Source: Escherichia coli
GTDB taxonomy: Bacteria > Pseudomonadota > Gammaproteobacteria > Enterobacterales > Enterobacteriaceae
Strand: one strand, 5' to 3'
Length of the DNA: 64,000 nucleotides
Assembly: GCF_044647545.1 (NCBI RefSeq)
Contig: NZ_CP172818.1
The position numbers were made by a program, and so were the translations under genes. Numbering within the stretch: position 1 is the stretch's first letter; the number at the start of each line of letters is the position of its first letter. Shown piece after piece: positions 1 to 10,048 of the stretch. The notes beneath the pieces were generated by a model that made no database searches, had not been told where the DNA came from, and worked only from the letters and a program-made list of their open reading frames with translations.

Positions 1-480
1 CGTTGGTGAAGTGCGGGTTGATTTGCAACGGGAACAGATTCAGCGCATCGAAACCTTGCGGATCGACAATCGGCATATCGTTGGTGGTACGAATGGTTGG
101 GCAAGCAAGGTTAGCGCCTGCGCTCCAGCCAATATACAGCGCGCCACGTTTCACCACGTCAGTAATTGGTGGCAGCAGCCCGCGCTCGCGGCACTGTTTC
201 AGCAACTGGAAAGTATTACCGCCGCCGACAATCACGATCTCAGCATTTTCAATCGCGGCAACGGGATCGACAACGCTATGAATACCGGTGACAGAAACAC
301 CCAGCGGAGCGAGAACCGCAGCCGTTTTCGCTGTGTAATCATCCCAGGTCTGCGTTACGCCAGCGAAAGGAATAAATACCGCTGAACGGCGACCCTGCAA
401 CTGTTCAGCAATCAGCGGCAGCGCGTGTTCCAGCCAGGCTTTACCCGGCAGCGTCGAGTTACTCAATAAAAGCAGTTCCA
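1..480 (-). CDS. pepE: Peptidase E (alpha-aspartyl dipeptidase), N-terminal ~160 codons; rest of gene lies beyond window start
   Basis: Reverse complement of 1-480 translates [30 protein letters not shown]...; ATG at 478-480 (complement) with GGAG upstream; recognised as PepE from memory. Not in ORF track because no stop in window. Confidence 0.9.
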
Positions 481-609
481 TTACTTCTCCGGTTAGTAAG
501 AAATCACGGGAGCCATGCTACCACTGTGATTTTAACCGCTTACTGACATGGCTCACGATGTTGCGCATTGCTTCTGGAAAGGATTTCCAGACGCAGGTCA
601 CGAATTTCC

Positions 610-3600
610 ATAAAACCAGACTGTTTTTTCATAAACACTCATTTACGATGACCCCCATCTCCCGAAAATCAGACAAACCACCATTACCGATAATCCCTAA
701 ACAAACACGAAAATCACCATACCGTTAATTTTTTTTTACAACGTACCATCACACTCAAACCACCCACAATCCACAAACTCGAAATGTCTTACTCATATAT
801 CACCACCCAGCGTTTGTAAACCATAACCAGTTGACGATTCCATTTTCACCATACCCCATTACAAACACCCAAACGAGCCCTCGTCATTTTTCACAAATTA
901 CCCCATATCGCTACGATATTCACCCCTTTACGAAACCCATTCACCCATACCATTTCATTTCAACGTACTGCATTGAAAATAAAAAAACACACCATATTCC
1001 AAATCCAAATCGCCACCCGTAACCCACGTTCCCCAACCATGACCCAACACCTCCAACGGTCCCATCAGCGACTTTATCCGTTAATTACCGTCATCAATTT
1101 CCCGCGTTCTCGCGCCTCTTCCATCGCATACGCCGATGACCCCACATACCCGTGTATTAAAACACCAGTTCCCTACCCCAACCTGATCCTCTTTTAATTA
1201 AATCGTTTGATCGATCATTCGTACAAAAACCCACCCGTGAATACTTCAAATTAAAGATGCCTTTCATACGCAAAACATGCTCACCAACCTCTTAATTTTT
1301 CTCTGTTCCATGATCTCCGTTAATCATCAATTCAACGTGATATTTCTGATGTTTCACTTTACCCACTGTGATTTAACTGATGTAACACCATGATCACGCA
1401 CGCCACCGAACCCACAGACTAACAGTACCACCTCAGAAACCGAGAAAAAGAAAGCATCAAATATTTCACCCCATCATCGAACACCATCGTAACCGACCAC
1501 CACGATAAAACCCCACAATCTCATCCAGGGTCACAAATCGAATCGCTCACATATTTTTATCATACCGCTACGAACAGCGAACAATCATCCGAACCAACGC
1601 CAATCTCACCCAACGCGAACATGCAGAATACAATCGAAACGTGTTCTTCCGCTGCTTTATCCGCCGCGTGCTGAAACTACGTGATTACCAAACACCGTCA
1701 CACCTCCTCCCACCAACAACGCGATCGATTCCTCGATGCTTTCTACCAACGATAACCAAATCGGAGATTATGCCGATCAGAATCCAAATCCCCCGCCGAG
1801 TTCATCCACCAACTATCAATTCCACGTACCACCACATAATTCGTTTTTAAATCACCAAATTAAACCAATCACCTACACAATTAACGACGATGATCTGAAA
1901 TTCATCCACACTCCCATTCCGCAATACAAAAAAAAAATATACAATAATTTTATACTTATTTCCATGATTTTCACCTTTTAATTCTCATCCCTCCTTTAAA
2001 CATATGTACACACGCTATTATTTAATTTGATTAATGTTCGTTTATTTTTCGATAATATTGATTAGATCTACCTACGAGCGTAAACCATATACCCAAGATT
2101 ATTTAATCATGAAACGTTAATAACTCATCTAATGAAATCTTTTTAACTGTTTCTTACCAAGTCACCATACCCCAATATTCATACCTATTTTTACCCCTCG
2201 AACCATTCTAACATCTTTCGATGAAAAGATAAAAAAGTTTCGTCCTATATTCGGGTTTGATAATCCGCGACGGCTTTTTCATATTACCACGTTAACCTTC
2301 ATTCCCGTCGCACCTACGCAATAATGTCCGGCGAATTCATCGTTATAAATTCGTCATTGCAGATAATAATGCGTTCGTTACCACTTTAACCAACGGTATA
2401 CCTCCGTGATCACGTCATCAATCCACGTAATGTTCATCAAAATCCTCCTCCGCTGTTCCACCTGTCTCCAACGACGCAGATTTCTTTCGATTTCTCCGTT
2501 CACAGAAATCCATCAATATTCATGCTTCCTGTTATCAACCATTCACCCACGCAGAGAAAGCCGCTGATTACCCCAACGAGATTCGCATCCAACATCGCTC
2601 CCATTCCACGGGCTCCGCACTGTAAACCACCAATCACCATCATCTTGATTTAATCTTACGTACTTTTCCACTTTCTACGATGTCTCCCGTTCTCGCCGCA
2701 CAAATTCAACCCTCGACCTCATCCGTATATCTAACTGATTCCACATCCAACTAATTTCCATCGCAAAAAATGCATTACCATAAAACCTGATCGTTTTTCC
2801 GCCCGCAATGTTATTTACTCCGTATAACCCGTTCAACACAGATAACAAACAAAATCACCATTCTCTAATCTTCCCCCCCAAAAATCGTTTTTTATACCTT
2901 CACGCACTGCTCGACGTGATATTCCGTCCACCCACCTTCTTCATATTCCCGTCCATCCTGTTTTTTCCAGAATCCCCCGCGATACCGACCACACGATACC
3001 GTCTTACCCATTCTTTCGACCAGACGATGAAGCTATTACGCACTTTATCGCGTACACTCTCCTTCTACCTTCCACCGACTTTCTAGAAACATTCACAATC
3101 ACCATGTGTTGTTCTACGTACCGTCCCCACCCTCGACATCAGAAAAAGTTTTTTATATACCATTTTTTCGAATCACTTCGTTATTCATACTCCCCACCTT
3201 TCTCATCACCACAACCGAAATTACCCGTTATTACCAACTCGATCACAAAATGATAATTTCTCTATATATTTACCTCTTCGCTTAGATTTCCCAAAATGAT
3301 ACCTTTACGATTCATATTTCCACCCACTAATATCACATCTTACATCCTTTCTAATAATTCACCACAACCAACCAATCCGACCATACAATAATATTTTACC
3401 AAATTTAAATTTCATAAACAATATTTTAGATAATAGACCCGTAATTTTTATATAAACATCGAAATTTTTATTCATAAATTCACTTTTATAAAAATTAATA
3501 TATTTTCCACCATGCAAACAATCTTATTTTTCTTCACCACAAGCCAAATGGAATATCTTTTTAATTTATTCATTCGATAAGATGTTTTTTCTCATATTCG

Positions 3601-4300
3601 TTTCAACCACCGTAATATCAAAAAACCGAGCAAATACGCCAGCAACCCGGGCATTCATCTCACTCTCTTCACCACCATAAAACCATCCATACCCTCCGAA
3701 TCCTACCAATTCCCACCACGACATCCAATTACCCATACAAATTTTTAAACCTAACTCATATCCCAACGAATTAATTTATCCACAACCGGAAAATCCCGAA
3801 TCGATTCCCCTTTCAACTCCCCTGTATTAATTTTTACATAACGCTTTCGATTTACCACGTCCGCCAATAATACCAGATTAACTCCCGATTCCCCCCCGCA
3901 ATTTTCAACATCCTCACCCCCCAGGAAAAACCAACAAACCCATCCACAACGACCACATCCCCTTAACCCCACACCCATTATCTCTTCATCCTCATCATTT
4001 CCCGACACACACAACTCTTTCAGCCAAACTTTTCTTCATCCCCACCAAGATTTTCTTATCATATACGATACAATTCCTCGACCCCTTTTAACAACTACGG
4101 TAAAACCACCCCGATCCCCTCATACCCAAAATCAACCACAATCAAACAATCTCACTTTTTCCATCCCTCTTTCCACATGCAAAACCTTTCCACCACGAAA
4201 ACACAGACTTTCAAACGATTTTTCACTCAAGAAAACGCTTTCTCCACATTTTTTCCAACACACACACACATTCAATATTGATTATCTTATTGCCACAAAA
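610..4300. other. Anomalous ORF-free, G-depleted (+ strand) block of ~3.7 kb between pepE and rluF; identity unknown
   Basis: Six-frame track shows only ORFs of 92 codons or fewer here; hand counts of several 60-nt lines give 2-7 G per 60 nt versus ~15 per 60 in flanks; A and C dominate. Boundaries approximate (left ~605-650, right ~4270-4310). Confidence 0.6.
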
Positions 4301-4422
4301 TTATCTATTTCCGGATACTTCTGTGATAAAAGCGGGCAGATCACATTAATTTCACGTTGCCTCATAACCCTTTTTTATCAACCCAAGAGGTACGGTATAT
4401 TCCGCGTTTTACAGGAGAATTT

Positions 4423-5358
4423 ATGCTGCCCGACTCATCAGTCCGTTTAAATAAATACATCAGCGAAAGCGGAATTTGCTCACGCCGCGAAGCGGATCGC
4501 TATATCGAGCAAGGCAATGTGTTCCTTAATGGCAAGCGAGCCACCATTGGCGATCAGGTGAAACCCGGCGACGTTGTGAAAGTAAACGGTCAGTTGATTG
4601 AGCCTCGGGAAGCCGAAGATTTGGTACTTATCGCCCTGAACAAGCCCGTCGGTATTGTCAGCACCACCGAAGATGGCGAGCGCGATAACATTGTCGATTT
4701 CGTTAACCACAGCAAACGCGTGTTCCCGATTGGCCGCCTGGATAAAGATTCCCAGGGGCTGATTTTCCTCACCAATCACGGCGATCTGGTGAATAAGATC
4801 CTCCGTGCGGGTAACGATCATGAGAAAGAGTATCTGGTGACGGTTGATAAACCGATTACCGATGAATTTATTCGTGGTATGGGGGCGGGAGTACCGATCC
4901 TCGGGACGGTAACTAAAAAGTGCAAAGTCAAAAAAGAAGCACCGTTTGTCTTCCGCATTACCCTGGTGCAGGGGCTGAACCGTCAGATTCGTCGCATGTG
5001 CGAGCACTTTGGTTACGAAGTGAAAAAGCTGGAACGTACGCGCATTATGAACGTCAGCTTAAGCGGCATTCCGCTGGGTGAGTGGCGCGATTTAACCGAC
5101 GATGAGTTAATCGATCTCTTTAAGCTCATTGAAAATTCCTCTTCCGAGGCAAAACCTAAAGCGAAGGCCAAACCGAAAACGGTAGGCATCAAACGTCCAG
5201 TCGTTAAGATGGAAAAAACGGTGGAAAAAGGCGGTCGCCCGGCGTCCAACGGTAAGCGTTTTACCTCGCCGGGGCGTAAAAAGAAGGGGGATCAGCGCCT
5301 GCCGCGCGTCGACGTATTTGCTGACCAGCTAAATGACGCCTCAGGATCCGGTTTATAA
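4423..5358 (+). CDS. rluF: 23S rRNA pseudouridine synthase RluF (S4 domain plus pseudouridine synthase domain)
   Basis: ORF 4357-5358; protein [45 protein letters not shown]... from ATG 4423. Frame as read here is 311 codons and overlaps yjbD; from memory K-12 RluF is 290 aa, so the 3' end is uncertain. Confidence 0.85.
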
Positions 5359-5564
5359 GCCTGCTTTTTCTTCAATTGGCGGGCTTTTTTCGCTTCAGCC
5401 TCACGCTCGACCATTAATTTATCGATGTACTCTTTCTTAATGCTGTTAGTTTCGGAGTTGGTCAGTACGCGACCATGCGCAATCCGCGCCCGATCCAGCA
5501 GTGTTTTAAGTTCACGCTGCTCGCGTTCAGTCATCTCTTTTTGGGTAATACGGGGGAGTGCCAT
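5292..5564 (-). CDS. yjbD: Small conserved protein YjbD (DUF3811)
   Basis: 90-aa [37 protein letters not shown]...; position between rluF and lysC. Confidence 0.8.
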
Positions 5565-5815
5565 GATGGTGCCCTCAGTGAGCCAGAGAGTTCAGTGTAC
5601 GGGAATTCGTTTGCGAGCAGAACTGATAATATTCATTTTGCCTTCTCTTAACTATTTATCTCTTTCGATAATTAGCGATAAATACAGATAAAAATTTAAC
5701 GCAAATTATTATCCGATAAAGACGCTGGTTAACAGAGTACAGGCTCGTTTATTGATGAGCATAGTGACAAGAAAATCAATACGGCCCGAAATATAGCTTC
5801 CAGGCCATACAGTAT

Positions 5816-7165
5816 TTACTCAAATAAATTAAAATGCAGCTTCTGCACCACCTGCTCGGCATCTTCGCCGGGCACCAGGAAGCACAGGTTATGGCTGGAT
5901 GCGCCGTAACAAATCATGCGAATGTTGAACGGTTCCAGTACGCCGAATACCTCTTTGCCAACGCCGCAGGCTTTTGACAGGTCATTGCCAATCAACGCGA
6001 CCAGCGCCAGACCTTCCTCCACTTCTACCCGGCATAGTGCAGACAGCTCCATCAGCAGAGATTGCGTCAGCAACGTATCGCCAGTGGAGGTTGAACCGGT
6101 GGTATCAAGGGTTAATGCCACGCTCACTTCTGACGTGGTGATTAAGTCTACCGAAATATTATGCCGCGCGAGGATGCCGAAAACTTCCGCGAGGAAACCG
6201 CGAGAATGCAGCATATTCAGGCTGTGCAAAGTGAGCAGAGTCTGATTGCGACGAAGCGCCAGCGCGCGGAACAGCGGCGGATTTTCAGTTTTATTGCACA
6301 CCAGCGTACCACCTGCGCGTGGGTCTTTGCTGGAGCCGACAAAGACCGGGATATCGCTGCGTACTGCGGGTAGCAACGTTGCCGGATGCAGTACTTTTGC
6401 ACCAAAAGTTGCCATCTCTGCCGCTTCGGCAAACGCGATTTCATCAATGCGTTTTGCTGCGGAAACCACGCGTGGATCGGTGGTGTAGATGCCAGGGACG
6501 TCGGTCCAGATATCAACACGAGTTGCGTGTAAAGCCTCCGCCAGCAAGGCTGCCGTATAATCGCTGCCTCCACGGCCAAGCGTCGTTGTACGACCTTTAT
6601 TTTCGCTACCGATAAATCCCTGGGTGATCACTAAGCCTTCATTGAGGCGTGGGAGCAGCTGCAGCGCGGCCAGTTCCGCCAGCGCGGCTACATCTGGCTC
6701 TGCACGACCAAATCGGTCGTTGGTACGCATCACTTTACGTACATCAAACCACTGTGCCTGAACATCGCGTTCGCGCAGGATTTCGACAAACAGCAGGGTC
6801 GACATCAGCTCGCCGTGGCTGACCAGTTCATCTGTCAGCGCCGGAGACGTTGCCAGCGCCGCCGCTTCTGCCAGAACAGTAATGTTCTCCAGCAGACGTT
6901 CAATCTCTTCACGGATAACGTTCGGGTAACGCAGACGTTCCAGAATGGCAAACTGGATATTGCGGATTGCGTCGAGTTTTTCGAATCGCTCGCCAGGTTC
7001 CAGTCCTTCAGCTAAAGCGACCAGCAGATTAGTGATACCAGCAGAAGCCGAGAGGACAACTAAACGCACGTTGGCATCAGAAAGCACAATATCAGCGCTG
7101 CGGTTCATGGCGTCAAAATCAGCTACGCTGGTACCGCCAAATTTGGAGACAACAATTTCAGACAT
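5816..7165 (-). CDS. lysC: Lysine-sensitive aspartokinase III
   Basis: 449-aa ORF MSEIVVSKFGGTSVADFDAMNRSADIVLSDANVRLVVLSASAG...; full-length match to LysC from memory. Confidence 0.97.
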   Translation of the reverse strand: MSEIVVSKFGGTSVADFDAMNRSADIVLSDANVRLVVLSASAGITNLLVALAEGLEPGERFEKLDAIRNIQFAILERLRYPNVIREEIERLLENITVLAEAAALATSPALTDELVSHGELMSTLLFVEILRERDVQAQWFDVRKVMRTNDRFGRAEPDVAALAELAALQLLPRLNEGLVITQGFIGSENKGRTTTLGRGGSDYTAALLAEALHATRVDIWTDVPGIYTTDPRVVSAAKRIDEIAFAEAAEMATFGAKVLHPATLLPAVRSDIPVFVGSSKDPRAGGTLVCNKTENPPLFRALALRRNQTLLTLHSLNMLHSRGFLAEVFGILARHNISVDLITTSEVSVALTLDTTGSTSTGDTLLTQSLLMELSALCRVEVEEGLALVALIGNDLSKACGVGKEVFGVLEPFNIRMICYGASSHNLCFLVPGEDAEQVVQKLHFNLFE

Positions 7166-7189
7166 AACTACCTCGTGTCAGGGGATCCA

Positions 7190-7470
7190 TTTTCAGCCTT
7201 GGCACAAGGGAAGAGCGGAAGACGGGTGGGCGCAGAGCGATACTTCGCTACTATTTTCACCCAGAAGTGCTCCACCACTTGCGAAACGCCCGACTGCGAA
7301 CGCTTCTGGTGACAACCCAGGGGATTCAGCCCCTGTAGCCGATGATGAACGTGGCCAGCCGTTCAATCACCTCGGCGATGCACCCCCTCAGGTGTTATCA
7401 CAGGACTGGCTCCTCCAACACCGTTACTTGGGCAACGCGCCTCTTCTGGCCTGCGCTAGCGCAGGTAGTA
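7190..7470 (-). ncRNA. lysC leader containing lysine riboswitch (L box)
   Basis: Long 5' leader upstream of lysC on the - strand; minus-strand sequence begins AGAGGCGCGTTGCCCAAGTAACGGTGTTGGAGGAGCC... and contains GCCGAGG and GGGGCUGAAUCCCC, consistent with L-box features recalled from memory. Exact ends not determined. Confidence 0.65.
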
Positions 7471-7689
7471 CATTTATAAATAAAGGGTGAGCGGGGCGGT
7501 TGTCAACGATGGGGTCATGCGGATTTTTCATCCACTCCTGGCGGTCAGTAGTTCAGCTAATAAATGCTTCGCTGCGCTAAGGGTTTACACTCAACATTAC
7601 GCTAACGGCACTAAAACCATCACATTTTTCTGTGACTGGCGCTACAATCTTCCAAAGTCACAATTCTCAAAATCAGAAGAGTATTGCTA

Positions 7690-9339
7690 ATGAAAAACAT
7701 CAATCCAACGCAGACCGCTGCCTGGCAGGCACTACAGAAACACTTCGATGAAATGAAAGACGTTACGATCGCCGATCTTTTTGCTAAAGACGGCGATCGT
7801 TTTTCTAAGTTCTCCGCAACCTTCGACGATCAGATGCTGGTGGATTACTCCAAAAACCGCATCACTGAAGAGACGCTGGCGAAATTACAAGATCTGGCGA
7901 AAGAGTGCGATCTGGCGGGCGCGATTAAGTCGATGTTCTCTGGCGAGAAGATCAACCGCACTGAAAACCGCGCCGTGCTGCACGTAGCGCTGCGTAACCG
8001 TAGCAATACCCCGATTCTGGTTGATGGCAAAGATGTTATGCCGGAAGTCAACGCGGTGCTGGAGAAGATGAAAACCTTCTCGGAAGCGATTATTTCCGGT
8101 GAGTGGAAAGGCTATACCGGCAAAGCAATCACTGACGTAGTGAACATCGGGATCGGCGGTTCTGACCTCGGCCCGTACATGGTGACTGAAGCACTGCGTC
8201 CATACAAAAACCACCTGAACATGCACTTTGTTTCTAACGTCGATGGGACTCACATCGCGGAAGTGCTGAAAAAAGTAAACCCGGAAACCACGCTGTTCCT
8301 GGTAGCATCTAAAACCTTCACCACTCAGGAAACCATGACCAACGCCCATAGCGCGCGTGACTGGTTCCTGAAAGCGGCAAGTGATGAGAAACACGTTGCG
8401 AAACACTTTGCGGCGCTTTCCACCAACGCCAAAGCCGTTGGCGAGTTTGGTATTGATACTGCCAACATGTTCGAATTCTGGGACTGGGTCGGCGGTCGTT
8501 ACTCTTTGTGGTCAGCGATTGGCCTGTCGATTGTTCTCTCCATCGGCTTTGATAACTTCGTTGAACTGCTTTCTGGCGCACACGCGATGGACAAGCATTT
8601 CTCCACCACGCCTGCCGAGAAAAACCTGCCTGTACTGCTGGCGCTGATTGGCATCTGGTACAACAATTTCTTTGGCGCGGAAACTGAAGCGATTCTGCCT
8701 TATGACCAGTATATGCACCGTTTCGCGGCGTACTTCCAGCAGGGCAATATGGAGTCCAACGGTAAGTATGTTGACCGTAACGGTAAGGTTGTGGATTACC
8801 AGACTGGCCCGATTATCTGGGGTGAACCAGGTACGAACGGTCAGCACGCGTTCTATCAGCTGATCCACCAGGGAACCAAAATGGTACCGTGCGATTTCAT
8901 CGCTCCGGCTATCACCCATAACCCGCTCTCTGATCATCACCAGAAACTGCTGTCTAACTTCTTTGCTCAGACCGAAGCGCTGGCGTTTGGTAAATCCCGC
9001 GAAGTGGTTGAGCAGGAATATCGCGATCAGGGTAAAGATCCGGCAACGCTTGACTACGTGGTGCCGTTCAAAGTGTTCGAAGGTAACCGCCCGACCAACT
9101 CCATCCTGCTGCGTGAAATCACTCCGTTCAGCCTGGGTGCGTTGATTGCGCTGTATGAGCACAAAATCTTTACTCAGGGCGTGATCCTGAACATCTTCAC
9201 CTTCGACCAGTGGGGCGTGGAACTGGGTAAACAGCTGGCGAACCGTATTCTGCCAGAGCTGAAAGATGACAAAGAAATCAGCAGCCACGATAGCTCGACC
9301 AATGGTCTGATTAACCGCTATAAAGCGTGGCGCGGTTAA
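7690..9339 (+). CDS. pgi: Glucose-6-phosphate isomerase
   Basis: 549 aa from [25 protein letters not shown]... (ORF track starts 6 nt upstream at 7684). Confidence 0.97.
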
Positions 9340-9355
9340 TTAAAAACCTTAATAA

Positions 9356-9387
9356 CAATGCCGACTATAAGTCGGCATTGTTTTATC
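9356..9387 (+). terminator. Putative intrinsic terminator downstream of pgi
   Basis: Inverted repeat caatgccgact/agtcggcattg followed by ttttatc. Confidence 0.6.
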
Positions 9388-9692
9388 AGATAAATCCTCT
9401 TGTCTGTTATTTAACGAAAATCATACCGTGAGGTTAATCCTAAAATAGATTTTTAATCGTGATTGATTTCGGAAAATACGCAGATTAATTACTTTTATTT
9501 TTATTTTAAGCTTATGATTTTTAATATTATTTATATATAAGTTGAAGCTTATATTTGATATTCATTCCAATTATCCTAAAACCCCATCGCTAATTCCCTG
9601 CGCCGTAATTCGCATGCTTTAGTTGTGTATACTCGATCCCGCCCGAAATGTTTTTGGGTAAATCTCCATTCATTCAATGAAGGGAAATTGTT

Positions 9693-9935
9693 ATGAAAAA
9701 AGTTCTGTATGGCATTTTTGCCATATCTGCGCTTGCGGCGACTTCTGCGTGGGCTGCACCTGTACAGGTGGGCGAAGCGGCAGGATCGGCAGCAACGTCG
9801 GTTTCGGCGGGGAGTTCCTCCGCGACCAGCGTCAGCACCGTAAGCTCGGCGGTGGGTGTCGCGCTCGCGGCAACCGGTGGCGGTGATGGTTCTAATACCG
9901 GGACCACAACAACCACGACCACCAGTACCCAGTAA
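9693..9935 (+). CDS. yjbE: Small secreted Ser/Thr/Gly/Ala-rich protein YjbE (yjbEFGH operon)
   Basis: 80-aa [24 protein letters not shown]... with signal peptide and low-complexity S/T/G tail. Confidence 0.85.
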
Positions 9936-10048
9936 TAAAGTATGTATCCCCAAAATAATTCGAGTCATTGCATCTGTGGCTTGAAGTATGAAGGGATTTA
10001 CCATAACCACACTCCGGTGTGGTTATTCTGCCCCTCTGGAGAAGAGTC

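What the first reader, a model, noticed from the sequence alone, without database searches (positions are those of the whole stretch)
481..4422. The junctions carry no obvious transposition signature, and the block splits the divergent pepE / rluF promoter region
By eye I find no target-site duplication or terminal inverted repeats at the approximate junctions (about 605-650 and 4270-4310), and no transposase, integrase or recombinase ORF inside. So it does not look like an IS, transposon, integron cassette or prophage. Native-looking sequence (about 481-600 and 4310-4422) still flanks each start codon, so the core promoters of pepE and rluF may be intact but are now about 3.7 kb apart.
Basis: partly seen in the sequence, partly recalled or inferred. 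Interest (0 to 1): 0.35.

Follow-up and report, generated by a model that had tools for sequence, protein, structure and literature searches.

The report
Mangled sorbose operon: an assembly artefact
The gene-less, G-poor 3.8-kb block between pepE and rluF is the ordinary E. coli L-sorbose operon with about 1,050 single bases (mostly G) and one 2-kb piece missing, almost certainly because the genome record was built as a read consensus on a K-12-like reference, so it is a data-quality problem and not new biology.

Summary
The block is real in the record. I found no terminal inverted repeats, target-site duplication or recombinase gene. But it is not a foreign insertion. It is the sorCDFBAME (L-sorbose) operon, which about half of complete E. 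coli genomes carry at this site. Compared with the near-identical strain FDAARGOS_497, the window lacks 2,004 bp (an aroE-like gene and most of sorE). It also lacks about 1,050 scattered single bases: 69% of + strand G, 11% of T, 9% of C and 1% of A. There are almost no substitutions.

Elsewhere the 64-kb window matches FDAARGOS_497 at every substituted position but one. The exceptions are seven small indel clusters, and each sits at a place where K-12-type and FDAARGOS-type genomes differ structurally. Both FDAARGOS_497 prophages are missing. One prophage site holds 99 bp identical to K-12 between non-K-12 flanks, a combination seen in no other genome. The other site (dusA) is a base-by-base mix of the attL and attR versions. 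The ends of the sor block carry K-12 "scar" bases.

Best explanation: the record is a read consensus laid on a sor-less, prophage-free K-12-like reference, and the long sor insertion came out mangled. Verdict: not a real feature, low interest.

The parts
1..480 (-). pepE 5' part (cut by the window start); start codon at 478-480
   Evidence: 100% identical to FDAARGOS_497 pepE.
481..577 (.). Native pepE upstream region; common to sor+ and sor-less genomes up to ...GCTTCTGG
   Evidence: 0 mismatches to L001 in 1-577. The shared sequence with K-12 and L001 ends at 577.
577..578 (.). Junction where 2,004 bp of the relatives is absent (L001 1679-3682: an aroE-like shikimate dehydrogenase gene and sorE beyond about codon 19)
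   Evidence: blastn and global alignment. K-12's sor-less scar has the same junction (CTGG|AAAG).
578..606 (-). sorE 5'-end patch. All 7 G are kept. Three extra A (583, 603, 604) match the K-12 scar.
   Evidence: The window matches L001 here except for the inserted A's, which K-12 has (GATTT, ACGAATT).
607..632 (-). Rest of the sorE 5' end, including its start codon (630-632). G loss starts at 607.
   Evidence: Alignment.
669..1311 (-). sorM (PTS EIID) remnant; 78% of bases kept
   Evidence: Coordinates mapped from L001 3791-4615.
1320..1965 (-). sorA (PTS EIIC) remnant; 81% of bases kept
   Evidence: Mapped from L001 4626-5423.
2022..2437 (-). sorB (PTS EIIB) remnant; 84% of bases kept
   Evidence: Mapped from L001 5489-5983.
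2437..2781 (-). sorF (PTS EIIA) remnant; 84% of bases kept
   Evidence: Mapped from L001 5983-6390.
2788..3415 (-). sorD (SDR oxidoreductase) remnant; 77% of bases kept
   Evidence: Mapped from L001 6400-7206.
3468..4164 (-). sorC (regulator) remnant; 73% of bases kept. T and C losses rise towards this end.
   Evidence: Mapped from L001 7276-8223.
4165..4387 (.). sorC-rluF intergenic region of sor+ strains. G is mostly kept from about 4296. A K-12-scar patch, TTTTTTATCAACCCAA, lies at 4371-4386.
   Evidence: No E. coli genome matches 4296-4450 better than 89%.
4388..4422 (+). Native rluF upstream region
   Evidence: 0 mismatches to L001 in 4388-5280.
4423..5358 (+). rluF. Its stop codon is lost because 4 nt are missing at 5289-5290 (CGTTAA>GA), which extends the ORF by 21 codons into yjbD.
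   Evidence: The site coincides with a K-12/FDAARGOS structural breakpoint. No protein with this sequence is on record.

Best explanation
The block is the L-sorbose operon (sorC-D-F-B-A-M plus the first codons of sorE) of an ST648-like strain practically identical to FDAARGOS_497, misrepresented in the sequence record.

The record behaves like a consensus of reads laid onto a K-12-like reference that lacks the sor operon and both prophages.
- Where the strain has short differences from that reference, the consensus is perfect.
- At the edges of large structural differences it is garbled.
- Reference-only segments that reads can bridge (xylE, yjcF, REP insertions) are removed.
- Insertions too long for any read to bridge (the 35-40 kb prophages) are dropped, and reference bases fill the hole.
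- The 6.9-kb sor insertion is intermediate. Its first 2,004 bp is dropped. The remaining 4.7 kb passed through a per-position 'base or gap' decision that discarded most G, and some T and C, on the + strand.

Shown: the homology, the deletion spectrum, identity to FDAARGOS_497 elsewhere, the coincidence of every anomaly with K-12-type structural breakpoints, and the reference-like filler bases.

Inferred: that the cause is a reference-guided consensus or polishing step, and which software step made the G-biased gap calls.

The organism itself most likely has an intact sor operon and, probably, the two prophages.
For: (1) Homology. Window 578-4038 aligns to the sor operon of L001 at 74.7% identity with 431 gap openings. 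Of about 1,136 reference G, 786 are deleted and 340 kept. T loses 138, C 117 and A 11. There are only about 24-28 substitutions and 12-16 insertions.

(2) The parent allele is FDAARGOS-type. At 37 of 37 scorable L001/L002 polymorphic sites the window has the L001 base.

(3) The rest of the window has 0 substitutions against FDAARGOS_497 in 1-577, 4388-5715, 5815-18833 and 33710-64000, and 1 in 17833-33600. That one (32807) is the K-12 base.

(4) All seven other window-specific differences are indel clusters lying 0-21 bp from K-12-versus-FDAARGOS structural breakpoints. None of 200,000 random placements was as close; the estimate is about 6e-15.

(5) At the yjbD-lysC prophage site the window has 99 bp (5716-5814) identical to K-12, flanked by FDAARGOS-type sequence that differs from K-12 by roughly 20% locally. 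No other complete genome has this combination; the best full-length match is 93.6%.

(6) At dusA the window interleaves attL-type and phage-borne attR-type bases site by site. This is what is expected if reads from both prophage ends pile up on a prophage-free reference.

(7) The ends of the sor block carry K-12 scar bases: A583, AA603-604 and 4371-4386, the last matching K-12 16/16 where L001 differs.

(8) Retained bases are accurate while 22% are missing. This fits a gap-versus-base call and not a noisy raw read. Loss depends on context but is not deterministic: CGA keeps G in 77% of cases, AGT in 0 of 49.

(9) The block and its junctions occur nowhere else, in 5,425 E. coli genomes, GTDB representatives or JGI metagenomes.

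(10) The chromosome that carries the window's unique DUF2713 allele is 4,499,902 bp. That is far below FDAARGOS_497's 5.23 Mb and close to a K-12 backbone.
Against: I have no reads, assembly method or metadata for the record, so the artefact is inferred from sequence patterns only. I cannot name a tool known to drop G preferentially. The model does not explain why the first 2,004 bp of the insertion vanished completely while the next 4.7 kb kept 78% of its bases. The strand asymmetry (G 69% lost versus C 9%) needs reads of one orientation or an orientation-aware caller, which is assumed. The interleaved dusA site could in principle arise from patchy mismatch repair after a natural excision. 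The 99-bp K-12 identity could be a conserved natural empty-site allele. The rest of the window has no frameshifts in about 50 genes, so the record is otherwise of high quality.
Confidence: 0.88

Rival explanations
1. This is an artefact of a different kind. The assembly was de novo, but the sor region was filled from one poor long read, or was left unpolished because short reads could not map to it.
For: Deletions dominate and are strand-specific and context-dependent, as single-molecule errors can be. The deletion rate drifts along the block.
Against: A raw read with 22% deletions should also carry several percent mismatches and insertions. Here they are about 0.6% and 0.3%. A de novo assembly would not place every other anomaly at K-12-type breakpoints, lose both prophages, or carry K-12 filler bases.
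Confidence: 0.05
2. The DNA is physically as written. The sor operon was inactivated by a 2-kb deletion and then hit by an unknown strand-specific process that removes single G residues, for example lesion bypass or an error-prone copying step.
For: The pattern is sharply confined to one operon, is strand-specific and shows sequence-context preferences, as an enzymatic or chemical process might.
Against: No known mutational process gives about 1,050 single-base deletions with fewer than 30 substitutions in 4.7 kb while 60 kb of flanks stay substitution-free. It does not explain the K-12 bases at the block ends or the anomalies at all other K-12 breakpoints. The block is found in no other genome or metagenome.
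Confidence: 0.03
3. The block is a natural evolutionary intermediate: an old, decaying sor pseudogene cluster from which the K-12-type sor-less scar later arose.
For: The window shares the CTGG|AAAG junction, the extra A's and the right-end patch with the K-12 scar, and is otherwise FDAARGOS-like, as an intermediate might be.
Against: An old pseudogene would have many substitutions. The retained positions are about 99.4% identical to a living sor allele and match it at 37/37 polymorphic sites, and the flanks are 100% identical to that strain. The 'intermediate' characters alternate every few bases, which is unlike descent or a single crossover. No such allele exists in 5,425 genomes.
Confidence: 0.02
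4. One reading: a foreign, non-mobile block of unknown origin inserted into the short pepE-rluF divergent promoter region.
For: There are no ORFs and the composition is unusual, with no transposition hallmarks.
Against: The block is collinear with the resident sor operon of this lineage from end to end. The site is occupied by that operon in half of E. coli (PMC2808357).
Confidence: 0.01

Closest known systems
sorCDFBAME (L-sorbose PTS/catabolic) operon of E. coli and Klebsiella, next to rluF
   Same: It has the same chromosomal site (pepE-rluF), the same gene order and orientation, and about 99.4% identity at the retained positions to the FDAARGOS_497 allele. EAEC 042 carries sorEMABFDC next to rluF and MG1655 lacks it (PMC2808357). 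The pathway is described in PMC13410766.
   Different: No sor ORF is intact. 2,004 bp (an aroE-like gene and most of sorE) and about 22% of the remaining bases are absent, chiefly + strand G.
K-12-type sor-less 'scar' (80 bp between pepE and rluF upstream regions)
   Same: The window has the same left junction (GCTTCTGG|AAAG) and shares the bases GATTT and ACGAATT and the right-end TTTTTTATCAACCCAA.
   Different: The window has 3.7 kb of sor-derived sequence between the two scar-like patches, and FDAARGOS-type rather than K-12-type flanks.
Reference-guided consensus or collapsed assemblies (known class of assembly artefact; from general knowledge, not tested against a named tool)
   Same: SNP-level agreement with the true strain is perfect. 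Errors are confined to the edges of structural differences from the reference. Unbridgeable insertions are lost and filled with reference bases. Duplicated att regions are collapsed into a mixed consensus.
   Different: I know of no documented case with a G-biased single-base drop-out across a multi-kb insertion. The responsible step is not identified.
Hypermutation systems (cytidine-deaminase editing, diversity-generating retroelements) and G-less or C-rich rut-like tracts
   Same: They also give a strand-specific, base-specific change confined to a few kb, and a C-rich, G-poor + strand.
   Different: Those systems give substitutions, not deletions. Here the other three bases are enriched only in proportion to the removal of G, and the sequence is a subsequence of a known operon.

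Membership tests
sor (L-sorbose) operon | Located between pepE and rluF | tested here: met
   PMC2808357 places it next to rluF.
sor (L-sorbose) operon | Collinear homology to sorC, sorD, sorF, sorB, sorA, sorM and sorE | tested here: met
   One collinear alignment runs from window 578-4387 to L001 3683-8535. Each gene maps in order. sorE is represented only by its first 19 or so codons.
sor (L-sorbose) operon | Intact reading frames, i.e. a functional operon as written | tested here: not met
   The longest ORF in the block is 92 aa and is not in a sor frame. 16-27% of each gene's bases are missing.
IS element / transposon / MITE | Terminal inverted repeats plus a target-site duplication at the mapped ends (577/578 and 4387/4388) | tested here: not met
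   One search shows no inverted or direct repeat pairing the two ends. The only junction feature is a local 12-nt hairpin at 569-595.
IS element / transposon / prophage / integron | Transposase, integrase or recombinase gene | tested here: not met
   (ORFs): the whole block is accounted for by sor genes.
Reference-guided consensus artefact | Differences from the closest natural relative are confined to structural breakpoints relative to a second (reference-type) genome | tested here: met
   7 of 7 small anomalies lie 0-21 bp from K-12-type breakpoints, and so do the ends of the sor block.
Reference-guided consensus artefact | Reference-identical filler where the strain has an insertion too long to bridge, and a collapsed mixed consensus at duplicated att sites | tested here: met
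   5716-5814 matches K-12 99/99 between non-K-12 flanks and is unique among 5,425 genomes. The dusA 5' end is interleaved.
Reference-guided consensus artefact | Read-level proof (depth, clipping, stated assembly method) | not testable with these tools
   No reads or record metadata are available. The source genome appears to be withheld from the collection: 5,425 of 5,426 genomes match.
Enzymatic hypermutation (deaminase, DGR) | Base substitutions of one type on one strand | tested here: not met
   Changes are deletions (1,052) and not substitutions (about 24-28).

The most novel reading that the evidence does not exclude
The sequence is physically real. A 4.7-kb operon in a living E. coli has lost about 70% of the guanines of one strand as single-base deletions without accompanying substitutions, which would imply an unknown strand- and base-specific deletion process targeted to one locus.
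Probability: 0.03. Interest if true: 0.9.

Novelty: not a real feature. Interest (0 to 1): 0.1.

Why it matters
Biologically there is nothing new. The strain almost certainly has a normal sor operon at its normal site, so pepE and rluF are not newly separated.

The practical point is data quality. A record filed as a complete E. coli genome appears to be a read consensus threaded on a K-12-like reference.
- It probably omits two prophages. In the closest relative, one of them carries blaCTX-M-15, blaOXA-1, tet(A), aac(3)-IIe and aac(6')-Ib-cr.
- It has destroyed the stop codons of rluF and psiE.
- It has produced at least one protein allele that exists nowhere else (WP_400165101.1).
- It contains an ORF-less block with extreme GC skew.

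All of these can mislead composition scans, pan-genome work, pseudogene counts and resistance-gene surveys.

Tried and rejected
- G-to-A or C-to-T hypermutation. Rejected because A, C and T are enriched only in proportion to the loss of G, and the changes are deletions.
- A noisy single long read. Unlikely because mismatches and insertions are too rare for 22% deletions.
- A 50:50 mixture with a sor-less contaminant strain. Rejected because about 60 flank sites that differ between K-12 and FDAARGOS all carry the FDAARGOS base.
- A natural 'intermediate' allele between sor+ and the K-12 scar. Rejected because the sequence is near-identical to a living allele and no such allele occurs in 5,425 genomes.
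- A deterministic, sequence-encoded rule for which G is lost. Identical 7-mers agree only 74.5% of the time against 64.7% expected, so the loss is context-biased but stochastic.
- Finding the source record or independent copies. Exact look-ups of the RluF variant, a reconstructed sorE'-junction peptide and the DUF2713 allele gave no contig. YjbH is too widespread to help. Exact-pattern scans for the left junction, the right patch and a G-depleted 34-mer found nothing in genome contigs or metagenome contigs.
- Promoter and terminator scan and Rfam. Nothing in the block exceeds chance, and only the normal lysC lysine riboswitch was found.
- I could not identify which software step gives G-biased gap calls, or why the first 2,004 bp was dropped whole.
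Full report
**What is in the sequence.** Window 481-4422 spans the interval between pepE (- strand, start codon at 478-480) and rluF (ATG at 4423). The interior (about 600-4300) has no ORF longer than 92 aa. Its composition is A .314, C .311, G .090, T .285, and its GC skew is -0.4 to -0.77. Nothing else in the 64 kb has |skew| above 0.3. No terminal inverted repeats or flanking direct repeats link the two ends, and no recombinase-like ORF is present. Promoter-like and terminator-like matches are at the level of shuffled sequence. Rfam finds only the normal lysine riboswitch of lysC.

**What the block is.** A megablast against 5,426 complete E. coli genomes shows the block is homologous to the sor (L-sorbose) operon. 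2,721 genomes carry that operon at exactly this site, and about 2,540 (K-12 among them) have only a short intergenic region. The literature agrees: EAEC 042 has sorEMABFDC next to rluF and MG1655 lacks it (PMC2808357). The pathway is summarised in PMC13410766.

**How the block differs from a normal sor operon.**
- Against FDAARGOS_497 (L001), window 1-577 is 100% identical. Window 578-4038 aligns to L001 3683-8018 at 74.7% identity with 431 gap openings.
- A global alignment shows two kinds of difference.
  - A clean 2,004-bp gap (L001 1679-3682). It removes the aroE-like gene and sorE beyond about codon 19, with the junction at window 577/578.
  - About 1,050 scattered single-base deletions.
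- By base, 786 of about 1,136 G are lost (69%), 138 T (11%), 117 C (9%) and 11 A (1%). Against this there are only about 24-28 substitutions and 12-16 insertions.
- Remnants of sorM, sorA, sorB, sorF, sorD and sorC map in order to 669-1311, 1320-1965, 2022-2437, 2437-2781, 2788-3415 and 3468-4164. Each keeps 73-84% of its bases.
- Loss of G depends on context. CGA keeps G in 77% of cases and CGT in 65%; AGC keeps it in 5% and AGT in 0 of 49.
- The loss is not deterministic. Identical 7-mers share the same fate 74.5% of the time against 64.7% expected, and the rate drifts along the block.

**Exact breakpoints.**
- Sequence common to sor+ and sor-less genomes ends at ...GCTTCTGG (577) and resumes at AGGTACGG (4388).
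- Positions 578-606 are the sorE 5' end with all 7 G kept. They carry three extra A (583, 603-604) that FDAARGOS_497 lacks and the K-12 'scar' has.
- At the right end, 4371-4386 (TTTTTTATCAACCCAA) matches K-12 16/16 where FDAARGOS_497 reads differently, while the bases on either side are FDAARGOS-type.
- No genome in the collection has either hybrid end.

**The decisive context.**
- At all 37 scorable sites where two sor+ alleles (L001, L002) differ, the block has the L001 base.
- Outside the block the window has no substitutions against FDAARGOS_497 over 1-577, 4388-5715, 5815-18833 and 33710-64000. It has a single one in 17833-33600, and that one is the K-12 base.
- Every other difference is a small indel cluster.
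  - 5289-90: CGTTAA>GA, which destroys the rluF stop codon.
  - 9339.
  - 13914-17.
  - 14452/14457, which destroys the psiE stop codon.
  - 32337/32343, which creates the unique DUF2713 allele WP_400165101.1.
  - 33264.
  - 53594-53622: 18 bp of the yjcE-actP terminator.
  - These are documented.
- Aligning the window to K-12 shows each cluster lies 0-21 bp from a place where K-12-type and FDAARGOS-type genomes differ structurally. Those places are a REP insertion after rluF, a REP after pgi, the yjbT-psiE spacer, xylE, a 30-bp indel in yjbL/M and yjcF.
- Random placement never reproduced this in 200,000 trials; the estimate is about 6e-15.
- Small K-12/FDAARGOS indels of up to 18 bp, and replaced segments of 50-270 bp, are reproduced correctly apart from their edges.

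**The prophage sites.**
- FDAARGOS_497 has a 34.8-kb Mu-like prophage (with a resistance island) between yjbD and lysC, and a roughly 40-kb prophage in dusA. The window has neither.
- At the first site, FDAARGOS-type sequence runs up to the exact left prophage junction (5715). Then come 99 bp identical to K-12 (5716-5814; AR_0077 differs at 3 sites). FDAARGOS-type sequence resumes at the exact right junction (5815).
- No other complete genome has this combination. The best full-length match to 5660-5860 is 93.6%.
- At dusA, 33620-33700 alternates site by site between the original (attL) and phage-borne (attR) versions of the dusA 5' end.

**Interpretation.** These patterns fit one model. The record is a consensus of reads from an FDAARGOS_497-like (ST648-type) strain laid on a K-12-like reference that lacks sor and both prophages.
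- SNPs and short indels are called correctly.
- Reference-only segments that reads can bridge are deleted, with ragged edges.
- Insertions no read can bridge (35-40 kb) are lost. Uncovered reference bases remain at one site, and the attL and attR reads pile up on one locus at the other.
- The 6.9-kb sor insertion, bridged by few reads, is rendered badly. The aligner would split it at the 30-bp sorE/scar homology into a 2,004-bp piece and a 4.7-kb piece. That split matches the clean gap and the G-depleted block.
- The retained bases are accurate while 22% are missing. This points to a per-position base-versus-gap decision, not to a noisy read.
- The chromosome length of the record carrying the unique DUF2713 allele is 4,499,902 bp. 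FDAARGOS_497's chromosome is 5.23 Mb, so the length fits a K-12-sized backbone.

What I cannot show:
- which program did this;
- why G on the + strand is preferentially dropped (this presumably needs reads of one orientation or an orientation-aware caller);
- why the first 2,004 bp vanished entirely.

These steps are inference.

**Rivals.**
- A real G-deleting process would need about 1,050 deletions with fewer than 30 substitutions in one operon while 60 kb of flanks stay unchanged. It would not explain the K-12 bases or the breakpoint-linked anomalies.
- An ancient decaying pseudogene is excluded by the near-identity to a living allele.
- A poor single read in a de novo assembly does not explain the low mismatch rate or the genome-wide link to K-12 breakpoints.
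- The foreign-insertion reading is refuted by the end-to-end collinearity with sor.
- Independent occurrences were sought and not found.

**Verdict.** The observation (no transposition hallmarks, native sequence at both start codons) is largely right, with corrected coordinates. The implied interpretation of an unexplained insertion splitting a divergent promoter is not right. In this lineage the two genes are naturally about 6.9 kb apart, with the sor operon between them. The strange 3.8-kb sequence is best explained as an artefact of how the record was produced (confidence about 0.88, or about 0.93 for any kind of artefact). It is not a real biological feature. Interest is low except as a data-quality flag.

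Noticed in passing
window 5289-5290 (rluF/yjbD convergent junction): Four bases are missing relative to all relatives (GGGGCGTTAATCAG>GGGGGATCAG). This removes the rluF stop codon and extends the ORF by 21 codons into yjbD. The site sits exactly where K-12 has an extra 132-bp REP-like segment. No protein with this sequence is on record.
   Followed up: yes
window 14452 and 14457 (psiE 3' end): A C and the T of the psiE stop codon (GAGTAAAAA) are missing, which frameshifts and extends psiE. The site is the junction where K-12 carries xylE and FDAARGOS-type genomes do not.
   Followed up: yes
window 5716-5814 (between yjbD and lysC): 99 bp are identical to K-12 between FDAARGOS-type flanks. They lie exactly where FDAARGOS_497 has a 34.8-kb Mu-like prophage whose tail gene is interrupted by a resistance region (blaCTX-M-15, blaOXA-1, tet(A), aac(3)-IIe, aac(6')-Ib-cr). 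The record may therefore be hiding a prophage and resistance genes.
   Followed up: partly
window 33620-33700 (dusA 5' end): The sequence alternates base by base between the original dusA 5' end (attL in FDAARGOS_497) and the phage-supplied one (attR). This suggests a collapsed dusA prophage of about 40 kb.
   Followed up: partly
window 53594-53622 (yjcE-actP intergenic): 18 bp are missing in three gaps, including the 3' half of a terminator-like hairpin (GGTGCAGTACATCGCACCTTTTT). The site is where K-12 carries yjcF.
   Followed up: yes
window 32337-32343 and 32807 (DUF2713 / yjbL-yjbM homologue, 32247-33248): A T deletion plus an A insertion 6 nt later changes Ile-Lys-Asp to Lys-Arg-Asn, next to a 30-bp K-12 indel. 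A single T>C change matches K-12. Together they make a protein allele (WP_400165101.1) seen on one contig only, probably an artefactual database entry.
   Followed up: partly
L003 (K-12) 1739-1819 versus L001 3683-3711 and 8490-8535: The 80-bp K-12 sor-less 'scar' contains a recognisable piece of the sorE 5' coding region (AAAG..GCAGGTAACG) directly after the pepE-side junction, and a diverged copy of the sorC-rluF spacer end. This suggests sor-less E. coli arose from a sor+ ancestor by two deletions, and not that sor+ arose by insertion.
   Followed up: partly
window 569-595: A 12-nt inverted repeat (TGCTTCTGGAAA / TTTCCAGACGCA, 11/12 complementary, 3-nt spacer) straddles the 577/578 junction. 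It is created by joining the pepE-side end to the sorE 5' patch. Its significance is unknown.
   Followed up: no
window 9339, 13914-13917 and 33264: These are minor homopolymer and short indels (TTT>TT after the pgi stop; TTTTTTTGGCTGTGTG>TTTTTGCGGTG, partly K-12-like; CCC>CCCC). All lie at K-12/FDAARGOS structural breakpoints.
   Followed up: yes
searches of E. coli genomes: Exactly 5,425 of 5,426 genomes match even highly conserved core segments. The window's own genome therefore seems to be held out of the collection, which implies it is a RefSeq 'complete genome' record.
   Followed up: no
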